A DNA stretch of 64,000 nt from Trueperaceae bacterium (GTDB taxonomy: Bacteria; Deinococcota; Deinococci; Deinococcales; Trueperaceae): the NCBI GenBank assembly GCA_965215565.1, contig CBDCDZ010000004.1, forward strand, positions 2,176,001 to 2,240,000, written 5' to 3'. A model generated the notes under the pieces. The model worked only from the letters and a program-made list of their open reading frames with translations. It was not told the DNA's origin and did not search any database. Shown piece after piece: positions 19,876-47,962 of this stretch (its first letter is position 1; every line of letters starts with the position of its first letter). The position numbers were made by a program, and so were the translations under genes.

Positions 19876-20478
19876 ATGATCGACATTACCGGAAGTATCT
19901 ACGTCTGCTATCACCGCGACGATCAGGAACACGCGGACACGTTCTTGCAGGACTTCGACCACCTCTACGGGCTCGCCGTGCGGCGTGAGGAGGATGAACT
20001 CCCCGAGGACATCCTGCGCGATAACGACAAGCACAACGTGATCCATAAGATTCGCGAGCGTTATTTGGCTGACTCCGTCATCACCGTTGTGCTCATAGGA
20101 CCTTGCACTTATACGCGCCGTGCGGTGGACCTAGAACTCATGGCGTCGCTCCATCACGGCGGCGACGATATGGCAGATCCGGATGAGGCGGAGAGGCTGC
20201 CGAACGGTCTTCTAGGCATCATGCTCCCTAACTACAACAACGCGGGCTTTCCCGACAGGTTAAACGAGAACTTGCAGGTGCCTGAGGGGGGCACCAGGTC
20301 CTACGCCGACGTTATCCCCTATCCGCAGAGCAAAGACGAACTCGCCGAGGCGCTCTCCGAGGTAGCGCGTGCCCGCACCGAACGTCGTGACCTGGTCAAT
20401 AATTCGCCCCACATGTTCAGCGAGAACAGGGCGTGCATTCCGCCCGAGCCAGGTGAGCAGTTCGCGACGAAGGAGTAG
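19876..20478 (+). CDS. TIR-like domain protein (DUF1863/ThsB-like)
   Basis: IYVCYH..D, IRERYLADSVITVVLIGPCT..RR.VD.E..ASL, PNGLLGI, P.RL..N. Confidence 0.85.
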   Translation: MIDITGSIYVCYHRDDQEHADTFLQDFDHLYGLAVRREEDELPEDILRDNDKHNVIHKIRERYLADSVITVVLIGPCTYTRRAVDLELMASLHHGGDDMADPDEAERLPNGLLGIMLPNYNNAGFPDRLNENLQVPEGGTRSYADVIPYPQSKDELAEALSEVARARTERRDLVNNSPHMFSENRACIPPEPGEQFATKE

Positions 20479-30634: not shown

Positions 30635-30823
30635 CTAATCCTCTTCATCCTCTAGGATGTCTTCGGCGGGAATCCACACGGCTTTTCCGCCCCGCCATAC
30701 GACGATAGGGTTGCCTGCTTGTTTGTGCTTGCGCCTCGCATCCCTAGCGGCTTTGGCGAGGGCTTCGCTAATAATCTCTGGGTTTTCAAACGCCTTTTCG
30801 ATTCTATCCTTGTCACTATCCAT
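30635..30823 (-). CDS. Small protein partnering the zeta-like ATPase (putative antitoxin)
   Basis: A..A...HK.AGNPIVVWR.GK.V.I pattern; ATG overlaps the upstream gene end. Confidence 0.7.
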   Translation of the reverse strand: MDSDKDRIEKAFENPEIISEALAKAARDARRKHKQAGNPIVVWRGGKAVWIPAEDILEDEED

Positions 30824-31394
30824 AGCGCTTCTTGACCTCTTCCCAAAGTTTCGAATCACCGATCTGCCTGTCTGTTCTACCCGTTCCTGATGCTACCAGT
30901 CTGGGCGTCCTTGTGCCGGTGTTGTCGTAAAAAGTCCAGCGGTTAGCGAGAGGTTGGTACAGCTCGAAAAAGTTGCGCAAACCTGCCTTATAGCGCCTTC
31001 TCACCGTTTCAATCGGCACGAAATGACCGCCGAATCTGACCCGTTCTTTCACTCGTTGAATAGCAAACTCGGCAGAAGGAAGCCATAAGAAAACCAGATG
31101 GACGCGGTAGCCGCGCTCCTGCTGACGCCGCAGCCAGGGGGCGAACGAGCGGCTCGCCAGCGTCGTTTCGAACGCGAACGTCGCTTTAGCCTCTGCCAAT
31201 TCGTTCAACCTCTTCAACATAATACGCCCCGCTGCAAACGCCGCGCCCTCTGGGTCAAATGCAGATAGTCCTTGCGCAATCGTATCTGCATTGACAAACT
31301 CAGAAACGCCCAGCGTATCTCTCAGCAGAAAAGGTGCGCTTGTGGATTTGCCTGCGCCGTTCGGTCCTGCGATGACGATGATGTAAGGAGGCAC
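30816..31394 (-). CDS. Zeta-toxin-like P-loop ATPase
   Basis: IAGPNGAGKST, FVNAD.IA, FETTL, RV..GGH.VP; likely GTG start at 31394. Confidence 0.88.
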   Translation of the reverse strand: MPPYIIVIAGPNGAGKSTSAPFLLRDTLGVSEFVNADTIAQGLSAFDPEGAAFAAGRIMLKRLNELAEAKATFAFETTLASRSFAPWLRRQQERGYRVHLVFLWLPSAEFAIQRVKERVRFGGHFVPIETVRRRYKAGLRNFFELYQPLANRWTFYDNTGTRTPRLVASGTGRTDRQIGDSKLWEEVKKRYG

Positions 31395-31432
31395 GTGCGC
31401 CAAGTTTAGCACTCATTTTATAAACTGTAGGG

Positions 31433-40613: not shown

Positions 40614-41018
40614 TCAACTGTGAAGGTCAACACGCCAGAGACCACTTTCTAACCTCTTCGCGCCGGGTTCAGCTAACCTCGCTTCATCCAGATAGAGATA
40701 CGCCCAGACCTCTTGATTTAGCGGATAGGCGACGGTTTTGATGCGCTCGTATTCGGGTGGGTCCCAGTGGCAGCCCTCGAGTTCGTCCAAAAGCGGCAGT
40801 GCCTGTCCGATATTTTCAAAGGTGAAGACGTTGCCGTGGACTTTTCCCTCACCCCTCGTGATGGCGGGGTAATCTTCGGGCTCGAGATGATAAAGCGTAA
40901 AGCCTTCGATATAGGCGTCTTGAGAGGTGAAGCGCCCACCTCTTTGCGCGACGCTGTGGTAGCGCCCGCCCGGTTTGAGGGTGCCGTAGACGAAGACGTG
41001 GGGGATAAGATCAGTCAA
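40614..41018 (-). CDS. Gamma-glutamylcyclotransferase (AIG2-like)
   Basis: FVYGTLKPG, YPA, LDELEG...Y.R motifs. Confidence 0.9.
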   Translation of the reverse strand: MTDLIPHVFVYGTLKPGGRYHSVAQRGGRFTSQDAYIEGFTLYHLEPEDYPAITRGEGKVHGNVFTFENIGQALPLLDELEGCHWDPPEYERIKTVAYPLNQEVWAYLYLDEARLAEPGAKRLESGLWRVDLHS

Positions 41019-41079: not shown

Positions 41080-41604
41080 TTAAGTGTTGTTGCCTAAGTA
41101 CAGGGTTTTGATAGCATTGAGATGATGTCGCTCGTGACCAAGAATAACGTAAAGCAAACCGAGCACGCTTAGATTATCGTTATTTGCTTCGCCGAAAAGA
41201 GCTAACCGTTTGGGCGTCAGGCTTTCAAACATGGCAAGATTTGCTTTTCTCTGAGATAAGAGTTCTGTAGTAACGCTAGCCAAAGTACGTTGGTGGTAGC
41301 GCCCCTTACGAACATAGGTAGTTTTGTCGAAATCGTAGTCCAAGCGATTTTGCGTATCTCCGCGACTAAAGCGAAGCACGCGGAGCGAAAAAATGCGCTC
41401 TACATCAATAACATGCCCCACTACTTCGCGGATGCTCCATTTATCTTCCTCGTAGCGGAGTAAAGATTGCTCCTCACTGATACTGGATAGCAAAGACTCT
41501 GTAACCGCTAATTGACCTCTAAAAGCACTGACAATATCTGTTTCTTGAACATTATCAATGTAGCGTTGATATCTCTCGGGGTACTCTCCAGGACTAGGTG
41601 TCAT
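41080..41604 (-). CDS. DinB family protein
   Basis: Y...KWSIREVVGH..D.ERIF; GHERHH. Confidence 0.9.
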   Translation of the reverse strand: MTPSPGEYPERYQRYIDNVQETDIVSAFRGQLAVTESLLSSISEEQSLLRYEEDKWSIREVVGHVIDVERIFSLRVLRFSRGDTQNRLDYDFDKTTYVRKGRYHQRTLASVTTELLSQRKANLAMFESLTPKRLALFGEANNDNLSVLGLLYVILGHERHHLNAIKTLYLGNNT

Positions 41605-41658
41605 CCTCGTATTTTACGACTAAGGTTTAAGTGCCAGTCTTGTGAAGCTTTGTAGCTT

Positions 41659-41700
41659 TGTGAAAGAGGACCTCGAGGCGTGCGCCATATTCAAGGATCA
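41659..41700 (+). pseudogene. Relic of a DUF433 antitoxin C-terminus
   Basis: Translates FVKEDLEACAIFK; similar to 43608-43646 and to the intact LTKEDFKACIAF at ~44600. Confidence 0.5.
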
Positions 41701-42164
41701 GCTAAATCTGTATCAGGCTCGCCAGGGTGAGGATGTCCTATAGCACGCGCCATCGCTAGAGCCTGCCCCTTGTGATGAAATTCGTGGGTTATAGGATGAA
41801 GGATGAGCCAGCGCCTAGATAACGCAATGTCTTCTCCGGAGGAGGCTGTCCAGATAAGAGGTGCATCCAAGTCGGTAAAGCTGTCCAGCGCTTTTGAAAC
41901 GGCGGCATCTACTTCAGCAAATACGGTGCGTAAAGCCTGAACATCGTCCACTTCAACTGTAGACTCGTCTGCACCGAGACCCACCGTACCGACCCACCAC
42001 AAGTAGGTTTCTGCCACATGAGCCTGAATTGCGTTCAAACTACCGTAAGCAAAGCTGTCATCTTGCATGGTGAACACGTCGGGCGGCAGCGTCTCAAGCC
42101 AATCAAGCACTTTTGCTCTAGTGCGCTTTGTGAGGTCATAAAAGGTTCGTAAGTCCTGATTCAT
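41691..42164 (-). CDS. DinB family protein
   Basis: HVAETY..W; H.ITHEFHHKGQ. Confidence 0.9.
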   Translation of the reverse strand: MNQDLRTFYDLTKRTRAKVLDWLETLPPDVFTMQDDSFAYGSLNAIQAHVAETYLWWVGTVGLGADESTVEVDDVQALRTVFAEVDAAVSKALDSFTDLDAPLIWTASSGEDIALSRRWLILHPITHEFHHKGQALAMARAIGHPHPGEPDTDLADP

Positions 42165-42221: not shown

Positions 42222-42686
42222 TTACATCTCTACACCAATAACAACAGACATAAGCTCATAACGGTCTCTAGCAACGAAGCCTAAGGTTGCGTAAAAGCGC
42301 CGCGCCTGTTCGTTTGTCTTAGCCACTTCCAAATGAAGGGCGACGACTTTGTGCTGAGCAAGTTCGGACTTAACTCGAGCAATCACCTTTGAGCCCACCC
42401 CCAAACCTCTGTTCGGCTCGCTGATAAAAAACTCATCAAGATAGGCGTCTCGCCCTCCTAACTCGATACTGTAGCCAAAGGTAATCACGATGTAGCCGAT
42501 TACTTTTTCTTGAATGCGAACAAGCCAGATACGACCTAAAGCGGCGTCTGTAAGCAAGGGACTCACCGCGTTGCGCCTCTCTACATCAGACATACTGATT
42601 TCCTCAAAGTCGTGGTAAGCACGCATGAGAGGTAGCAGGTCTTCTAAGTTTTGAGAAGTAGCGGTTTTGATGTCAAAGTCGGTCAT
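42222..42686 (-). CDS. GNAT acetyltransferase
   Basis: YLDEFF.....RG.G.G, LEV...N..A..FY...GF. Confidence 0.9.
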   Translation of the reverse strand: MTDFDIKTATSQNLEDLLPLMRAYHDFEEISMSDVERRNAVSPLLTDAALGRIWLVRIQEKVIGYIVITFGYSIELGGRDAYLDEFFISEPNRGLGVGSKVIARVKSELAQHKVVALHLEVAKTNEQARRFYATLGFVARDRYELMSVVIGVEM

Positions 42687-42753
42687 GGGGTTGTGGTGTG
42701 GCTTGGTTTAGGTTCTCGAGCCGCTATGCAAAGAGGTCTTTCGTAAACGCCTT

Positions 42754-43482
42754 CTACTTTAGAGAAACCTTATTATAGATGACGGGCATCTGCCCCTGCC
42801 ATCTTTGCCACGTCATCTCATCCGTGACGAGGTCAGCCATGAAGTGTGCCACGTTGACGCGGCTCGTTTGACCCGGATCAAAGATAGCGCTTCTCGTCGG
42901 TGAGGCGTGCAGTTCGTAGGCGCTCACGCTAGCTTCGTTCGTTAAACCGTCGGGACGAACGGCAGCCCACTCGGTTGCTTTATCATTTTGACCCACCTCA
43001 GTTCGCAGGTAGTCGGCAGCTTCTTCGTTATCTGCGTGGGGCGGTAAGAGGCGGCGGAGCAGCGCAACGACGACTTTTTGACCCTGGGAAATGGGCTCAT
43101 CAAGGTCACGGTTGCTGTTGCCAGCGGTGTTCATCAGAACGAACTTAACGGGCTTAGCAGGCGTGTTCGTTTTGATGGCGTGGCACAGTCGCCGGGTTGC
43201 CTCGGTGACGAGCCTGCGCGGATGACCGTAAAGACCTTTCAAGGTCATGTTATGCCCTAAACACGAAGCAACGGCGTCACAACCTTTTACGTGCTGAGCC
43301 AACTCAGCGTCGCTAAGCTCTAAAAGGCTCGCTCGGATGGTAGAGAGGTTTTCATGCTGCCTGAGTTCTGCGGGTAGTTTGTTAGGACGCACGATAACCT
43401 TGACGTTCTGCCCGCGCTCCAGTAGTTGCGCCACGAGCAACCGCCCCGTCGCGCCGCTTGCGCCGACGACAAGGGTTTTCAT
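42754..43482 (-). CDS. NAD(P)H-binding atypical SDR (flavin-reductase-like)
   Basis: GASGATG, W..VRP..L, SRVNVA.FM. Confidence 0.88.
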   Translation of the reverse strand: MKTLVVGASGATGRLLVAQLLERGQNVKVIVRPNKLPAELRQHENLSTIRASLLELSDAELAQHVKGCDAVASCLGHNMTLKGLYGHPRRLVTEATRRLCHAIKTNTPAKPVKFVLMNTAGNSNRDLDEPISQGQKVVVALLRRLLPPHADNEEAADYLRTEVGQNDKATEWAAVRPDGLTNEASVSAYELHASPTRSAIFDPGQTSRVNVAHFMADLVTDEMTWQRWQGQMPVIYNKVSLK

Positions 43483-43574: not shown

Positions 43575-43650
43575 AAGGAGGAAGAGGTTGTAGAGACCTT
43601 TCTCGACTTTACGAAAGGGGACCTCGAGGCGTGCACCACGTTCGAATGAT
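43575..43650 (+). pseudogene. Relic of a DUF433 antitoxin C-terminus
   Basis: Translates KEEEVVETFLDFTKGDLEACTTFE*, versus the intact EEEILEDFPDLTKEDFKACIAF. Confidence 0.6.
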
Positions 43651-43659
43651 CATTAACCC

Positions 43660-44268
43660 TTACCAAATCTCGCCCAGCTCGAGCACAAACCCCTCTAAAA
43701 CCCCAGTTCCTCTAATCTCTTGGGGGTGCTCTTGTTCTTCCACGCCTTCAGAAGTATAGATGTAAATGCGCCTCTCTTGTGGGTCGATGAGCCAACCTAG
43801 CTCCGAACCGTTCTCCAAATACTCCTGCATCTTGTCCTTGACGACTTCTAAACGGTCCGTAGGCGAGCGAAGCTCTAGGACAAATTCAGGGCATACGGGT
43901 GGATGTTTATCCATCTGCGCGGGGGTGAGTTCAGCTAATTTATCTCTGCTCACCCAAGACACATCAGGGGAACGAACTGCGCCGCTAGGCAAGCGGAAGC
44001 CTGTTGAGGAATCGAAAATTTTACCGCGCTTATCTTGACGGTTCCAAGCGACAAACTGGTAGGTGAGTTCTGCGTTGCGGTTTCCTGTACGTCCTCCGGC
44101 GGGTGGCATGACGATAAGTTCTACTCGAGCACTAAGTTCCATGCGGAGGTCTCGGTTAGCCTGAGCAACGTCGAAAAACGTGTCAGCGTTTAAGTCAAAT
44201 GGGGGACTAAGACGCATGACGAGTGGGTGCCAATTGATGGAGCGTTCTTTGAGCGTATCCACAAACAC
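43660..44268 (-). CDS. Uma2-family PD-(D/E)XK endonuclease
   Basis: FDSSTGF.LP.GA.RSPDVSW, P.FV.EL.SP.D, KMQEY..NG..LGWLIDP. Confidence 0.92.
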   Translation of the reverse strand: MFVDTLKERSINWHPLVMRLSPPFDLNADTFFDVAQANRDLRMELSARVELIVMPPAGGRTGNRNAELTYQFVAWNRQDKRGKIFDSSTGFRLPSGAVRSPDVSWVSRDKLAELTPAQMDKHPPVCPEFVLELRSPTDRLEVVKDKMQEYLENGSELGWLIDPQERRIYIYTSEGVEEQEHPQEIRGTGVLEGFVLELGEIW

Positions 44269-44329: not shown

Positions 44330-44396
44330 CTACGTTCCTAGCGTCACCACGCAAAGAGGGATTTCATGAGCCCCATCGACTTGCAGGAGCCTCGAG
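44330..44396 (-). pseudogene. Displaced copy of the last 21 codons plus stop of the SagB-like gene
   Basis: Encodes SRLLQVDGAHEIPLCVVTLGT*, identical in amino acids to 45055-45121; 10 of 67 nt differ, all synonymous. Confidence 0.93.
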
Positions 44397-44450
44397 CAGA
44401 CTGAAGAGTAAAAACTTGCTATCTATTAAAGGTCATCTTACACTTTCTCT

Positions 44451-44681
44451 ATGAACTATCAGGATTACATCACTATTGACCCCAATAAACGAGGGGGCAA
44501 ACCTTGCGTTCGGGGACTCCGAATCACCGTTTACGAGGTGCTCGATTATTTAGCTTCGGACATGACCGAAGAGGAGATTTTAGAGGACTTCCCCGACCTT
44601 ACGAAAGAAGACTTCAAGGCGTGTATTGCATTTGCGGCTGAGCGCGAACGCCGTTTTTTGACCGTTCCACCTGCGGCGTGA
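44451..44681 (+). CDS. DUF433 antitoxin (VapB45-like)
   Basis: I..DP..RGGKPC.RG.RITV..VL.....T.EEIL.DFP.L..ED..AC..F; TACACT 6 nt before ATG. Confidence 0.93.
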   Translation: MNYQDYITIDPNKRGGKPCVRGLRITVYEVLDYLASDMTEEEILEDFPDLTKEDFKACIAFAAERERRFLTVPPAA

Positions 44682-45013
44682 AGCTGCTGTTTGACCAAAA
44701 CCTTTCACACCAACTGACTCATTTGCTCAGCGACCTCTTCCCCAACTCACTGCACGTCAGAGATGTGGGGCTCAAAGCTGCCGATGACCCCACCGTGTGG
44801 AACTACGCAAAAGAGCACGGCTTCGTCATCGTCTCGAAAGATTCCGACTTTCATCAGCGGAGCCTCGTACTTGGCTATCCGCCAAAAGTCATCTGGATAC
44901 GGCTAGGGAATTGCTCAACTGCAGAGATCAAACAACTTCTTAGGCAGTATGAGGACGCAATCAAATCATTTGAAGGCGACTCTGAAGCTACGTTCCTCAG
45001 TCTTGCATGGTAA
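44678..45013 (+). CDS. DUF5615 PIN-like toxin (VapC45-like)
   Basis: MKLLFDQNLS, HV...GL....D..VW.YA, SKDSDF, PPKVIW.RLGN; GTGA overlap with the antitoxin. Confidence 0.93.
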   Translation: MKLLFDQNLSHQLTHLLSDLFPNSLHVRDVGLKAADDPTVWNYAKEHGFVIVSKDSDFHQRSLVLGYPPKVIWIRLGNCSTAEIKQLLRQYEDAIKSFEGDSEATFLSLAW

Positions 45014-45054
45014 CGAGAGTAAATTCGCTGCTTTTGCTAACAGCTAATCGCTTC

Positions 45055-45762
45055 TTATGTTCCTAGCGTCACCACACAAAGGGGTATTTCGTGAGCGCCG
45101 TCTACTTGCAAGAGCCTCGAGAGTTCATCGTCATAAAACTCCGCCCTGATCGTCGAGGCAAGCTCCAGAGAGACCGCCGCTAAGACCGCACACTGCGCCG
45201 CAGCCCCTGCTTCCAAGTACAAGTAGCGGTACGCCCGACTCTTCGAGCCGTCGTCGATGCGGCTGGGGATGCCGGTATAGGCAATGACAGCCGCGCACGC
45301 GCTGATGTCGGTGTCACCTAGAAGGGCGTCGGCGAGGTCTAGGCTGGGCTCGGTCTGGACGAGGTGCTCTAGGGCGTGTTCACGCGGGTTGTAGTGATAA
45401 ACGCCCGAAAAGACATCCTCAATGCGCCGCACAATGAGGTAGCACTCCAAGCCCGCGAGCGGAACCGCTGTGGCGTGCGTGCGCTGTCCGCCGTAGGTAA
45501 AGCCCGCTGTGGCCCACAAAATCTGCGAGATGTCGTGCTGGCGCAAGCGTCCACCCTCGGGGATGTTCTCACGTGTCGTCGAGAGAGTCTTCCAGAGTCC
45601 ACGACCGTTTTTGAGGTCAGGCACGGGCAACGAGGCGACCTCCAAGGGATTGGCATAGACCTTGTACGCGGAAATGTTCTTACCCGTTCTATTCGGCAAG
45701 GAGCCTCGGCGGTACTTGGTCTGCGATTGGAAGCTTTCGCCTATCGTCTTGTCTTTCTGCAC
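45055..45762 (-). CDS. SagB/nitroreductase-family protein
   Basis: SQILWA, GVYHYNP.EH.L, RAYRY.YLEAG..AQ, FYDDE...LL. Confidence 0.85.
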   Translation of the reverse strand: MQKDKTIGESFQSQTKYRRGSLPNRTGKNISAYKVYANPLEVASLPVPDLKNGRGLWKTLSTTRENIPEGGRLRQHDISQILWATAGFTYGGQRTHATAVPLAGLECYLIVRRIEDVFSGVYHYNPREHALEHLVQTEPSLDLADALLGDTDISACAAVIAYTGIPSRIDDGSKSRAYRYLYLEAGAAAQCAVLAAVSLELASTIRAEFYDDELSRLLQVDGAHEIPLCVVTLGT

Positions 45763-47059: not shown

Positions 47060-47962
47060 GTGCTCAGTGTTCTTTTTATCCTTCTAGGTATCGCTTTGCT
47101 ATGGCGACGGTGAACTGCTGGTGAGGTTCGCCCTACGCTTTAAGCTCAGCCCCTTGGTCATCGGCTTGACGGTAGTTGCGTTTGGGACGAGTGCCCCTGA
47201 GTTGGCAGCGACGCTCACCGCGTCCTTAAACGGTGCAGAGGCGATTGCGGTAGGTAACGTCGTCGGCTCGAACATCGCCAACGTCGGGCTCATCTTGGGA
47301 CTCGCCGCGCTTTTACTCCCCATCGCGATTCAGGAGAGCGTACTCCGGCGGGAGATGCCCGTCGTGATCGGGGCTAGCGTGCTGCCGCTCCTTTTGTTTG
47401 CGGACGGGGCGGGGGTGTGGGGCGGCTCGAGGGGGGCGTGCTCTTCGCGCTGCTCCTCGCGTATCTCGTGTGGATGCTCCGCACTCCGAACGAAGACGAA
47501 GCGTTAGACCCCGACCTCTACCCGCTCTGGCTCACGCTCGCAGGCATCGTCGGCGGGCTCGTGCTGCTCGTTTTAGGCGCACAGGTGCTCATCGAAGGAG
47601 CGACCTCTTTGGCCCTCTCCTTCGGCGTGCCGGAGCGCATCATCGGCTTGACCCTCGTGGCGGTAGGGACGAGTTTACCCGAACTGGCGAGTTCACTCGT
47701 GGCAGTTTTGAAACGTGAAACCGACCTCGTGCTCGGCAACATCATCGGCTCGAACATCTTTAATGTCCTATGCATTTTAGGCGTCACGAGCATGGTCACG
47801 CCCCTAACGCTCCCCTTCGCTGCGCTCCGCCTCGACCTCTTGGTGATGCTCGCGTTCGCCGCGCTCACCTTTGTCTTTTTGCTGACGCAGCGCAGGCTCG
47901 AGCGTTGGGAGGGCGGCGTGCTCGTGTTGGCGTACGGGGTCTATGTGGCGTGGCTGTTTTAG
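47060..47962 (+). pseudogene. Ca2+/Na+ antiporter (YrbG-like) with two frameshifts (~47100 and ~47410)
   Basis: GTS.PEL and GN..GSNI.N alpha-repeats fall in different frames; the N-terminal TM is in a third segment. Confidence 0.8.

What the first reader, a model, noticed from the sequence alone, without database searches (positions are those of the whole stretch)
44330..45121. TA module inserted with 3'-end gene replacement, breakpoint exactly at CTCGAG, no integrase
Seen: the last 67 nt of the SagB-like gene (45055-45121) recur at 44330-44396 on the other side of the DUF433-DUF5615 pair. Both copies encode SRLLQVDGAHEIPLCVVTLGT*. All 10 differences are synonymous (including TAA/TAG), and the similarity stops precisely at CTCGAG. 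Both tails therefore evolved as functional alleles in different lineages and were then joined. Inference: about 725 bp of DNA from a relative entered either by homology on one side plus a CTCGAG joint on the other, or as a circle recombining at CTCGAG. This is direct evidence that the iterated palindrome can act as a recombination joint that spreads TA cassettes while keeping the target gene intact.
Basis: partly seen in the sequence, partly recalled or inferred. Interest (0 to 1): 0.85.

Follow-up and report, generated by a model that had tools for sequence, protein, structure and literature searches.

The report
Toxin-antitoxin cassettes joined at CTCGAG palindrome
In a Trueperaceae bacterium a likely toxin-antitoxin pair sits between two copies of a gene's last 67 bases that stop matching exactly at the genome's over-abundant palindrome CTCGAG; the same gene end has likely been reused several times, and CTCGAG is likely a preferred but not required joint for integrase-free capture of small gene cassettes from relatives.

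Summary
Observation confirmed: same peptide, 10 synonymous differences, similarity ends at CTCGAG, and no integrase family in the window. The locus is a stack, not a lone 725-bp insert. A third, decayed tail lies at 42708-42765. Relative G002 has the same pair followed by a decayed tail at the same offset, plus another beyond its GNAT gene. Contigs of other strains show further cargo-to-tail joints at or near the site. The whole SagB gene, not just its tail, is unusually close to G002, which favours a long homologous anchor plus a CTCGAG joint. Other scar-like repeats end at CTCGAG in 5 of 34 loci against 0.7-1.7 expected (P 0.0006-0.03). Against: several cassette scars end elsewhere, clean indels show no enrichment (3 of 19), CTCGAG is conserved and denser at gene ends, and no cognate methylase tracks it. 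Verdict: a new variant of insertion with long target duplication or homology-facilitated illegitimate recombination (HFIR), biased to a HIP-like word; 'direct evidence' is too strong. The scan noted CTCGAG hyper-abundance in Deinococcales and tail scars on other DNA before; the listings I saw did not link them.

The parts
45055..45762 (-). SagB/ThcOx-type nitroreductase gene (235 aa), target of the insertions; 4-fold-site difference to G002 0.25 against a median of 0.377
45055..45121 (-). tail A, the functional last 67 nt, beginning at CTCGAG (45116-45121)
44451..44681 (+). DUF433 gene, putative antitoxin (role recalled, not tested)
44678..45013 (+). DUF5615/PIN-like gene, putative toxin (role recalled, not tested)
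44330..44396 (-). tail B, displaced and undecayed copy of the SagB end, beginning at CTCGAG (44391-44396); no in-frame ATG/GTG/TTG start upstream of it
43660..44268 (-). Uma2 gene, cargo behind tail B
43578..43638 (+). remnant of an older DUF433 gene, with CTCGAG at 43623
42754..43482 (-). NAD(P)-binding gene; its end overlaps tail C; not in the G002 locus
42708..42765 (-). tail C, decayed third copy of the SagB end (score 55; shuffle 99th percentile 37.5); same position next to GNAT as G002's first decayed tail; its start cannot be placed at CTCGAG
42222..42686 (-). GNAT gene, older cargo shared with G002, where a further decayed tail follows it
41662..41687 (+). second DUF433-like remnant around CTCGAG (41672), just after the DinB stop
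41080..42164 (-). two DinB-family genes, further cargo not in the G002 locus
40614..41018 (-). GGACT gene, inferred ancestral neighbour of SagB (a GGACT-like start follows SagB directly in G025 and G030), marking the far end of the roughly 4-kb stack

Best explanation
The duplicated tail is likely the scar of integrase-free uptake of DNA from a relative, likely anchored by homologous recombination on one side and joined on the other at CTCGAG, which likely acts as a preferred but not obligatory joint. SHOWN: the geometry gene-CTCGAG-tailA-cargo-CTCGAG-tailB; three tails in G000 and three in G002; a roughly 4-kb stack of small cargo genes; the block GGACT-GNAT-pair-SagB closer to G002 than the genome median; excess CTCGAG at the ends of other scar-like repeats, with identity running 0-6 nt past the site. 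INFERRED: a donor strand pairs over SagB, its far end is joined to the recipient's CTCGAG inside the gene, and the recipient's tail and earlier cargo are pushed downstream while the gene stays whole. Displaced tails then likely serve as short second homology arms, so cassettes can spread and change order. UNKNOWN: why CTCGAG is favoured. My guess is nicking or end-processing at the word by the unidentified system that keeps it abundant. Two histories fit equally well: (S1) SagB + tail A + pair came from a G002-like donor into a native tail-B locus; (S2) the block was shared first and tailB-Uma2-NAD entered at the far CTCGAG.
For: Tails and stack. 4-fold-site difference to G002: GGACT 0.13, GNAT 0.22, DUF433 0.27, DUF5615 0.15, SagB 0.25; the eight other flanking genes give 0.31-0.52 and the median of 413 genes is 0.377 (binomial P 0.0001-0.01). 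Unanchored repeat scan: CTCGAG at an end in 8 of 37 scar-like and 0 of 32 paralog loci. Shared-hexamer positions: 18 of 816 at ends against 5 of 1779 inside (pairs not independent). After dropping the discovery locus and two confounded arrays: 5 of 34 against 0.66-1.66 expected. A clean second case in G001: MazE-family gene, then MazF and cargo, then a displaced MazE tail starting 4 nt before CTCGAG. G000-G001 alignment ends: CTCGAG 52 against 13.9 expected, rank 1 of 736; the highest ratio is where both sides carry different DNA (13 of 270, 5.6-fold). Strain contigs in X2 join a Uma2 end and a DinB end to a SagB tail at or near the site (one contig each, depth 2-3). SagB orthologues: clear displaced tails in 2 of 5 loci with the site in the tail; of 48 without it, 2 were flagged and I rejected both as gapped GC-rich matches. 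ComEC in 3 of 3 genus genomes. Pure microhomology would pick CTCGAG in only 0.6% of 6-nt matches.
Against: Cassette scars without the site exist in G000: a 70-nt perfect gene-head copy around another DUF433 pair (C4:125020), tails at 230719, 2830687 and 3578760, and a TA array at 1138951; G001 717041 is another. Clean indels between species: 2 of 13 and 1 of 6 near the site, expected 1.2 and 0.6. G002 (0.8 Mb) gave 0 of 9 loci and G060 (0.4 Mb) 0 of 6. CTCGAG is conserved (0.59-0.67 against medians of 0.38-0.43) and denser in the last 60 nt of genes (2.24 against about 1.35 per kb). Plain colinear gaps are also 2.3-2.5-fold enriched, so part of the alignment-end signal is bias. In the array shared by G000 and G001 the site is at the stop-codon side, so it is not the joint. 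The G000 and G002 joints beside the pair are one origin, not two. G001 swapped its cargo behind SagB without leaving a tail. No methylase was found that tracks CTCGAG abundance.
Confidence: 0.55

Rival explanations
1. Ordinary HFIR or insertion with long target duplication. CTCGAG is a passive, abundant, conserved microhomology and has no joint role; the excess comes from ascertainment.
For: About half of the cassette scars I inspected lack the site. Clean indels are not enriched. With both bias corrections P is only 0.027. Such insertions are known in competent species and often span a start or stop (PMC2853133 passages).
Against: Microhomology share is 0.6%. Boundaries lie within 0-6 nt of the site in undecayed repeats. 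CTCGAG is the top end hexamer in two genomes. The site recurs at SagB in other strains.
Confidence: 0.25
2. A small circle formed between two consecutive CTCGAG sites (tail + cargo) integrates by a single RecA crossover in the tail.
For: The 725-nt unit has no internal site. A two-gene unit of about 620 nt between repeat+CTCGAG copies is present in G001, absent at the matching G000 junction and placed elsewhere in the G000 array. Circles that give partial duplications were the main product in an E. coli HFIR assay (PMC3240628 passages).
Against: SagB upstream of the site is G002-like along most of its length, which a circle would not bring. Other units contain internal sites (Uma2/NAD block: 3). 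No circle joint for the pair among the joints listed (contigs only; lists cut).
Confidence: 0.12
3. An XhoI-type restriction enzyme cuts donor and recipient and the cohesive ends are ligated, or an integrase acting in trans uses CTCGAG as its core.
For: XhoI-family genes occur in the family: a broken endonuclease beside a methylase in G025, with close methylase relatives in G002, G027, G030 and G059. Six tyrosine recombinase matches exist elsewhere in G000.
Against: XhoI family not found in G000, G001, G002 or G005. The methylase has no close match in G000 or G001. Restriction normally depletes its site (established knowledge), whereas this one is enriched. Identity runs a variable 0-6 nt past the site, and random-site insertions are not enriched.
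Confidence: 0.06
4. Chimeric assembly of two strains.
For: The source runs hold several related strains with other arrangements, and no single contig spans both joints.
Against: Each joint is bridged by an exact contig of similar depth (5.8 and 6.3). The G000 contig is 4.39 Mb. G002 has the same pair between a gene tail and a decayed tail. A third tail and parallel cases occur elsewhere.
Confidence: 0.02

Closest known systems
Insertion with long target duplication (Furuta, Abe, Kobayashi 2010, PMC2853133, passages seen; Nobusato 2000 seen only as cited there)
   Same: Small insert between direct repeats longer than 30 bp, no mobile-element gene; repeats often span a start or stop and leave the gene intact; mostly in naturally competent species.
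   Different: Described for restriction-modification cargo with near-identical repeats (44-47 of 46-47 bp in the table rows I saw). Here the cargo is TA/Uma2, the repeats are 85% identical alleles, the site is reused serially and the boundary is a genome-wide palindrome.
HFIR-built arrays: V. cholerae T6SS immunity arrays and Rhs orphan tips (Kirchberger 2017, PMC5361080, passages seen)
   Same: A conserved upstream gene acts as anchor; new modules push old ones downstream; integron-like order without integrase; finished arrays spread by homologous recombination.
   Different: There the displaced part is the variable effector/immunity module and no joint motif appeared in the passages seen. 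Here a conserved gene's tail is duplicated and the joint is biased to CTCGAG.
HIP1 (GCGATCGC) of cyanobacteria (PMC4390886, PMC5861425 passages; PMC13756078 part 1 of 6; bioRxiv 2024.09.10.611283 part 1 of 4)
   Same: Over-represented, conserved palindrome in coding and non-coding DNA. Linked in those papers to a deletion between two sites, plasmid recombination, SDR5 insertion and better transformation.
   Different: Other phylum and word, only 2.6-fold over a second-order model in G000; no cognate methylase found. In the text I saw, HIP1 is not reported as the joint of natural gene-cassette insertions.
e14 prophage in E. coli icd, leaving icdC (PMC13626634, passages seen)
   Same: Element supplies a replacement 3' end; the old end stays as a diverged fragment with synonymous differences.
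   Different: e14 is a 15-kb prophage with site-specific excision. Here the cargo is 0.7 kb with no recombinase and the site recurs about 7000 times in the genome.

Membership tests
Insertion with long target duplication | Direct repeats over 30 bp around an insert under 20 kb | tested here: met
   67-nt repeats, 658 nt between them
Insertion with long target duplication | No integrase or other mobile element in the insert | tested here: met
[quoted passage not shown]
   G001 has one tail but other cargo; G002 is filled; none found with tail B on the gene
Insertion with long target duplication | Restriction-modification cargo, as in the original definition | tested here: not met
   cargo is DUF433-DUF5615; it works like the class but is not filed in it
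HFIR | Long homologous anchor on one side | tested here: inconclusive
   SagB is unusually G002-like, but so are GNAT and GGACT on the other side
HFIR | Short microhomology at the other joint | tested here: met
   shared CTCGAG, 0 nt beyond
HFIR | Natural competence and RecA dependence | not testable with these tools
   only the ComEC family was sought; found in 3 of 3 genomes
Integrase-driven 3'-end replacement (e14/icd type) | Element-encoded recombinase beside the att site | tested here: not met
Integron | Adjacent IntI tyrosine recombinase | tested here: not met
   no PF00589 match within 1.7 Mb
Integron | attC hairpins after each cassette | not tested
   no attC model was run; the repeats seen are gene tails
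HIP (HIP1-like word) | Over-represented palindrome in genes and spacers | tested here: met
   top palindromic hexamer; 5596 of 6990 sites in predicted genes
HIP (HIP1-like word) | Conserved between genomes beyond other words | tested here: met
   rank 5 of 1333 and 3 of 2000; no codon-level control was run
HIP (HIP1-like word) | Cognate orphan methyltransferase | tested here: inconclusive
   two candidates tested do not track abundance; families listed; specificity cannot be read from sequence
HIP (HIP1-like word) | Raises transformation efficiency | not testable with these tools
   needs a cultured strain

The most novel reading that the evidence does not exclude
CTCGAG is an actively processed joint in Trueperaceae. 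A host system cuts or captures DNA ends at the iterated palindrome, so any conserved gene with a site near its end becomes a reusable landing pad: an integron-like, reorderable toxin-antitoxin array without an integrase. This would give highly iterated palindromes a concrete role in gene acquisition.
Probability: 0.3. Interest if true: 0.85.

Novelty: new variant of a known kind. Interest (0 to 1): 0.62.

Why it matters
What highly iterated palindromes do has been open for three decades (PMC13756078 introduction), and evidence for a recombination role comes from a few laboratory or single cases in cyanobacteria. Natural scars with joints at a HIP-like word in another phylum turn this into a simple test: tally joints in strain pairs, mutate the word in a one-armed donor, and repeat the tally for HIP1 in cyanobacterial genomes. 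It would also help explain how genomes collect many small TA genes that carry no mobility enzyme (12 DUF433 matches in G000).

Tried and rejected
A gapped gene-tail scan at score 46 was too noisy (163 mostly chance hits) and was dropped. A first ungapped tail scan (58 hits, output limited to shorter repeats) showed only SagB and one Uma2 locus at CTCGAG. A degenerate tail pattern found 0 metagenome matches. The protein scan gave 40 loci, none of this genus (best 84%). A 128-genome family search with tail B gave no new duplicated tail. Cognate methylase: the XhoI-like methylase has close matches in about 7 of 61 genomes and not G000; a Dam-like orphan is in 6 of 61; neither tracks the word. The array at G000 4.18 Mb / G001 185 kb was first counted as support and then removed, because CTCGAG lies at the stop-codon side. 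L019 and L212 were flagged and rejected as gapped GC-rich matches; 5 of 60 loci had no recognisable tail and 2 had too little downstream DNA; some loci repeat the same genome and many hold only 1.5 kb downstream. Run X3 held next to none of the stretch. PMC5378121 (passages) gave nothing usable. Literature searches that found no report of CTCGAG as a HIP or joint, or of HIP-bounded cassette insertion. The library lacks most subscription papers, and no supplements were read. G001 and G002 were sampled only in part (1.2 of 4.7 Mb, 0.8 of 4.3 Mb). Gene calls come from my own simple caller, which misses some small genes.

Full report
Observation. The repeat is as described: 44330-44396 (tail B) and 45055-45121 (tail A) encode the same 21 residues and a stop, differ at 10 of 67 nt, and identity runs 0 nt past CTCGAG. 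The two sites are consecutive. Between them lie DUF433 and DUF5615/PIN_10 genes (their reading as a toxin-antitoxin pair is recalled, not tested). The organism is a Trueperaceae member by named homologues of the SagB-like protein. No recombinase family was found among 68 window proteins scanned; tyrosine recombinases and a resolvase lie 1.7 Mb or more away or on other contigs.

The word. CTCGAG occurs 6990 times, 2.6-fold over a second-order model, and is the top palindromic hexamer while many others are strongly avoided. It is similarly common in G001 and G002, reaches one per about 155-220 bp in family f5 and is rare in f2 (G035 is one unpublished row of 61). It is conserved between species (0.59 and 0.67 against medians 0.38 and 0.43) and is denser in the last 60 nt of genes (2.24 against about 1.35 per kb). 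Both facts bias boundary counts and are corrected for below. No methylase tracking it was found.

The locus is a stack. A GGACT-like gene follows SagB directly in G025 and G030. In G000 about 4 kb lies between them: the pair, tail B, Uma2, a DUF433 remnant, an NAD-binding gene, decayed tail C (42708-42765), GNAT, DinB, a second DUF433-like remnant and DinB_2. G002 has gene-tail, the same pair (90% identical), a decayed tail at offset 657 (tail B is at 658), GNAT and another decayed tail. G001 has other cargo and no displaced tail. In run X2, single low-depth contigs join a Uma2 end to a SagB tail that begins 6 nt before CTCGAG, and a DinB end to a tail that begins with a one-mismatch site; a depth-14 contig shows the G002-like order. 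Among 53 scored SagB loci, clear displaced tails occur in 2 of 5 with the site in the tail; 2 of 48 without it were flagged and rejected on inspection (loci not independent).

Who gave what. Tail A is 4 nt from G002's tail; tail B is 9-10 from all three gene tails and shares 4 states with G001 alone. Genome-wide, G000 is closer to G001 (median 4-fold-site difference 0.31) than to G002 (0.38), yet SagB (0.25), the pair (0.27, 0.15), GNAT (0.22) and GGACT (0.13) are unusually close to G002, while the eight other flanking genes give 0.31-0.52. So more than 725 bp was exchanged, including SagB upstream of the site, which a tail-plus-cargo circle would not bring. Tail B has no amino-acid change, so it was displaced recently compared with G002's decayed copy. 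Either SagB, tail A and the pair entered a native tail-B locus (S1), or the block was shared first and tailB-Uma2-NAD entered at the far site (S2). I cannot separate these. In both, the joint beside the pair is the one G002 also has, so it counts once.

Is CTCGAG a preferred joint? Anchored scan: 10 one-sided repeat pairs at 6 loci, 0.62 per 10,000 pairs; most of 40 control hexamers gave 0-0.31, two overlapping words gave 0.84 and 0.96, and CGCCCG/CGGGCG gave 0.88 and 0.50, mostly from internal repeats. Unanchored scan by locus: G000 5 of 48, G001 (1.2 Mb) 3 of 12, G002 (0.8 Mb) 0 of 9, G060 (0.4 Mb) 0 of 6. All 8 fall among 37 scar-like loci and none among 32 paralog loci. One array, shared by G000 and G001, has the site at the stop-codon side and was removed with the discovery locus. 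That leaves 5 of 34 against 0.66 (raw), 1.02 (conservation) or 1.66 (plus gene-end density): P 0.0006, 0.004, 0.027. The clearest second case is a MazE-family tail in G001. Alignment ends between G000 and G001 hit CTCGAG 52 times against 13.9 (rank 1 of 736), and with G002 25 against 10.0 (rank 4 of 565). Short colinear gaps are also 2.3-2.5-fold enriched, against 3.5-5.6-fold for three structural classes with G001 and 1.1-3.2-fold with G002, so part is bias. Against: clean indels show 3 of 19 near the site, expected 1.8, and at least six cassette scars end elsewhere. Reading: preferred, not required.

Reordering. In the shared array a two-gene unit of about 620 nt lies between two repeat+CTCGAG copies in G001, is missing at the matching G000 junction and sits before the GmrSD gene instead. 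Displaced ends therefore likely serve as reusable short homologies, whatever made the first joint. The names YoeB-, YefM-, BrnT/A-, HicB-, RES- and UreF-like that I used for such genes are recalled; two of these proteins had no Pfam match.

Mechanism. Best (0.55): one-sided homologous anchor plus a joint favoured at CTCGAG during uptake of relatives' DNA; ComEC is present in 3 of 3 genomes; pure microhomology would choose this word 0.6% of the time. The enzyme step is inferred and untested. Rivals: passive microhomology with ascertainment bias (0.25), CTCGAG-bounded circles (0.12), restriction-ligation or a trans integrase (0.06), misassembly (0.02).

Comparison. It works like insertion with long target duplication (PMC2853133, passages) and like HFIR-built arrays (PMC5361080, passages), and resembles icd/icdC (PMC13626634, passages) without the integrase. 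HIP1 has been tied to site-specific and illegitimate recombination and to transformation (PMC4390886 and PMC5861425 passages; PMC13756078 part 1 of 6; bioRxiv 2024.09.10.611283 part 1 of 4; the primary papers of Gupta, Robinson and Akiyama were seen only as cited). Searches showed no report of CTCGAG as a HIP or of HIP-bounded cassette joints; supplements were not read. Earlier notes of this scan describe CTCGAG hyper-abundance in a Deinococcales family and tail scars in other genomes, and nothing on this genome or look-alike stretches.

Verdict. A real feature and a new variant of a known kind; interest 0.62. The boldest reading, an actively processed palindrome that builds integrase-free cassette arrays, has probability about 0.3 and would rate 0.85.

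Noticed in passing
G000:C4:4179400-4183900 and G001:C1:184900-189100 (L084): Orthologous arrays of 4-5 small TA/defence units separated by repeated 30-110-nt gene-tail copies ending in CTCGAG; unit content and order differ between the two species.
   Followed up: partly
G000:C4:4145204-4146964: Three displaced copies of one gene tail, each starting at CTCGAG, between PIN- and Fic-like pairs; no owner gene found in the DNA searched.
   Followed up: partly
G000:C4:1138951-1142346: Array of eight small TA-like genes separated by repeated 30-100-nt terminator/promoter-like elements without CTCGAG.
   Followed up: no
G000:C4:125020-125885: Another DUF433 pair with a perfect 70-nt copy of the next gene's 5' end; boundary not at CTCGAG.
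   Followed up: partly
genome-wide: AGAGGT/ACCTCT is over-represented and the best-conserved hexamer against G002 (0.66), with no strand bias, and tops alignment ends there: a possible second, non-palindromic word.
   Followed up: partly
family f5 (G040, G044, G048, G052, G056, G060): CTCGAG 23,000-28,000 times per genome, GAGCTC 4-24 times.
   Followed up: partly
G025:C1:1093829-1096226 (L120, L115): XhoI-family endonuclease gene broken by stops beside an intact methylase, in a genome with 6713 CTCGAG sites.
   Followed up: partly
window 47121-47962: Sodium/calcium exchanger-family gene appears split by a frameshift into two overlapping ORFs; contigs of another strain show indels near 47436.
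   Followed up: no
G000 versus G002 and G001: Gene order breaks every few kb at about 80% nucleotide identity, and some G000-G001 genes are nearly identical at 4-fold sites (1st percentile 0.07), pointing to ongoing exchange between species.
   Followed up: no
window 19876-20478 and 30816-31412: Isolated ThsB/TIR-like gene and a zeta-toxin/AAA-like gene.
   Followed up: no
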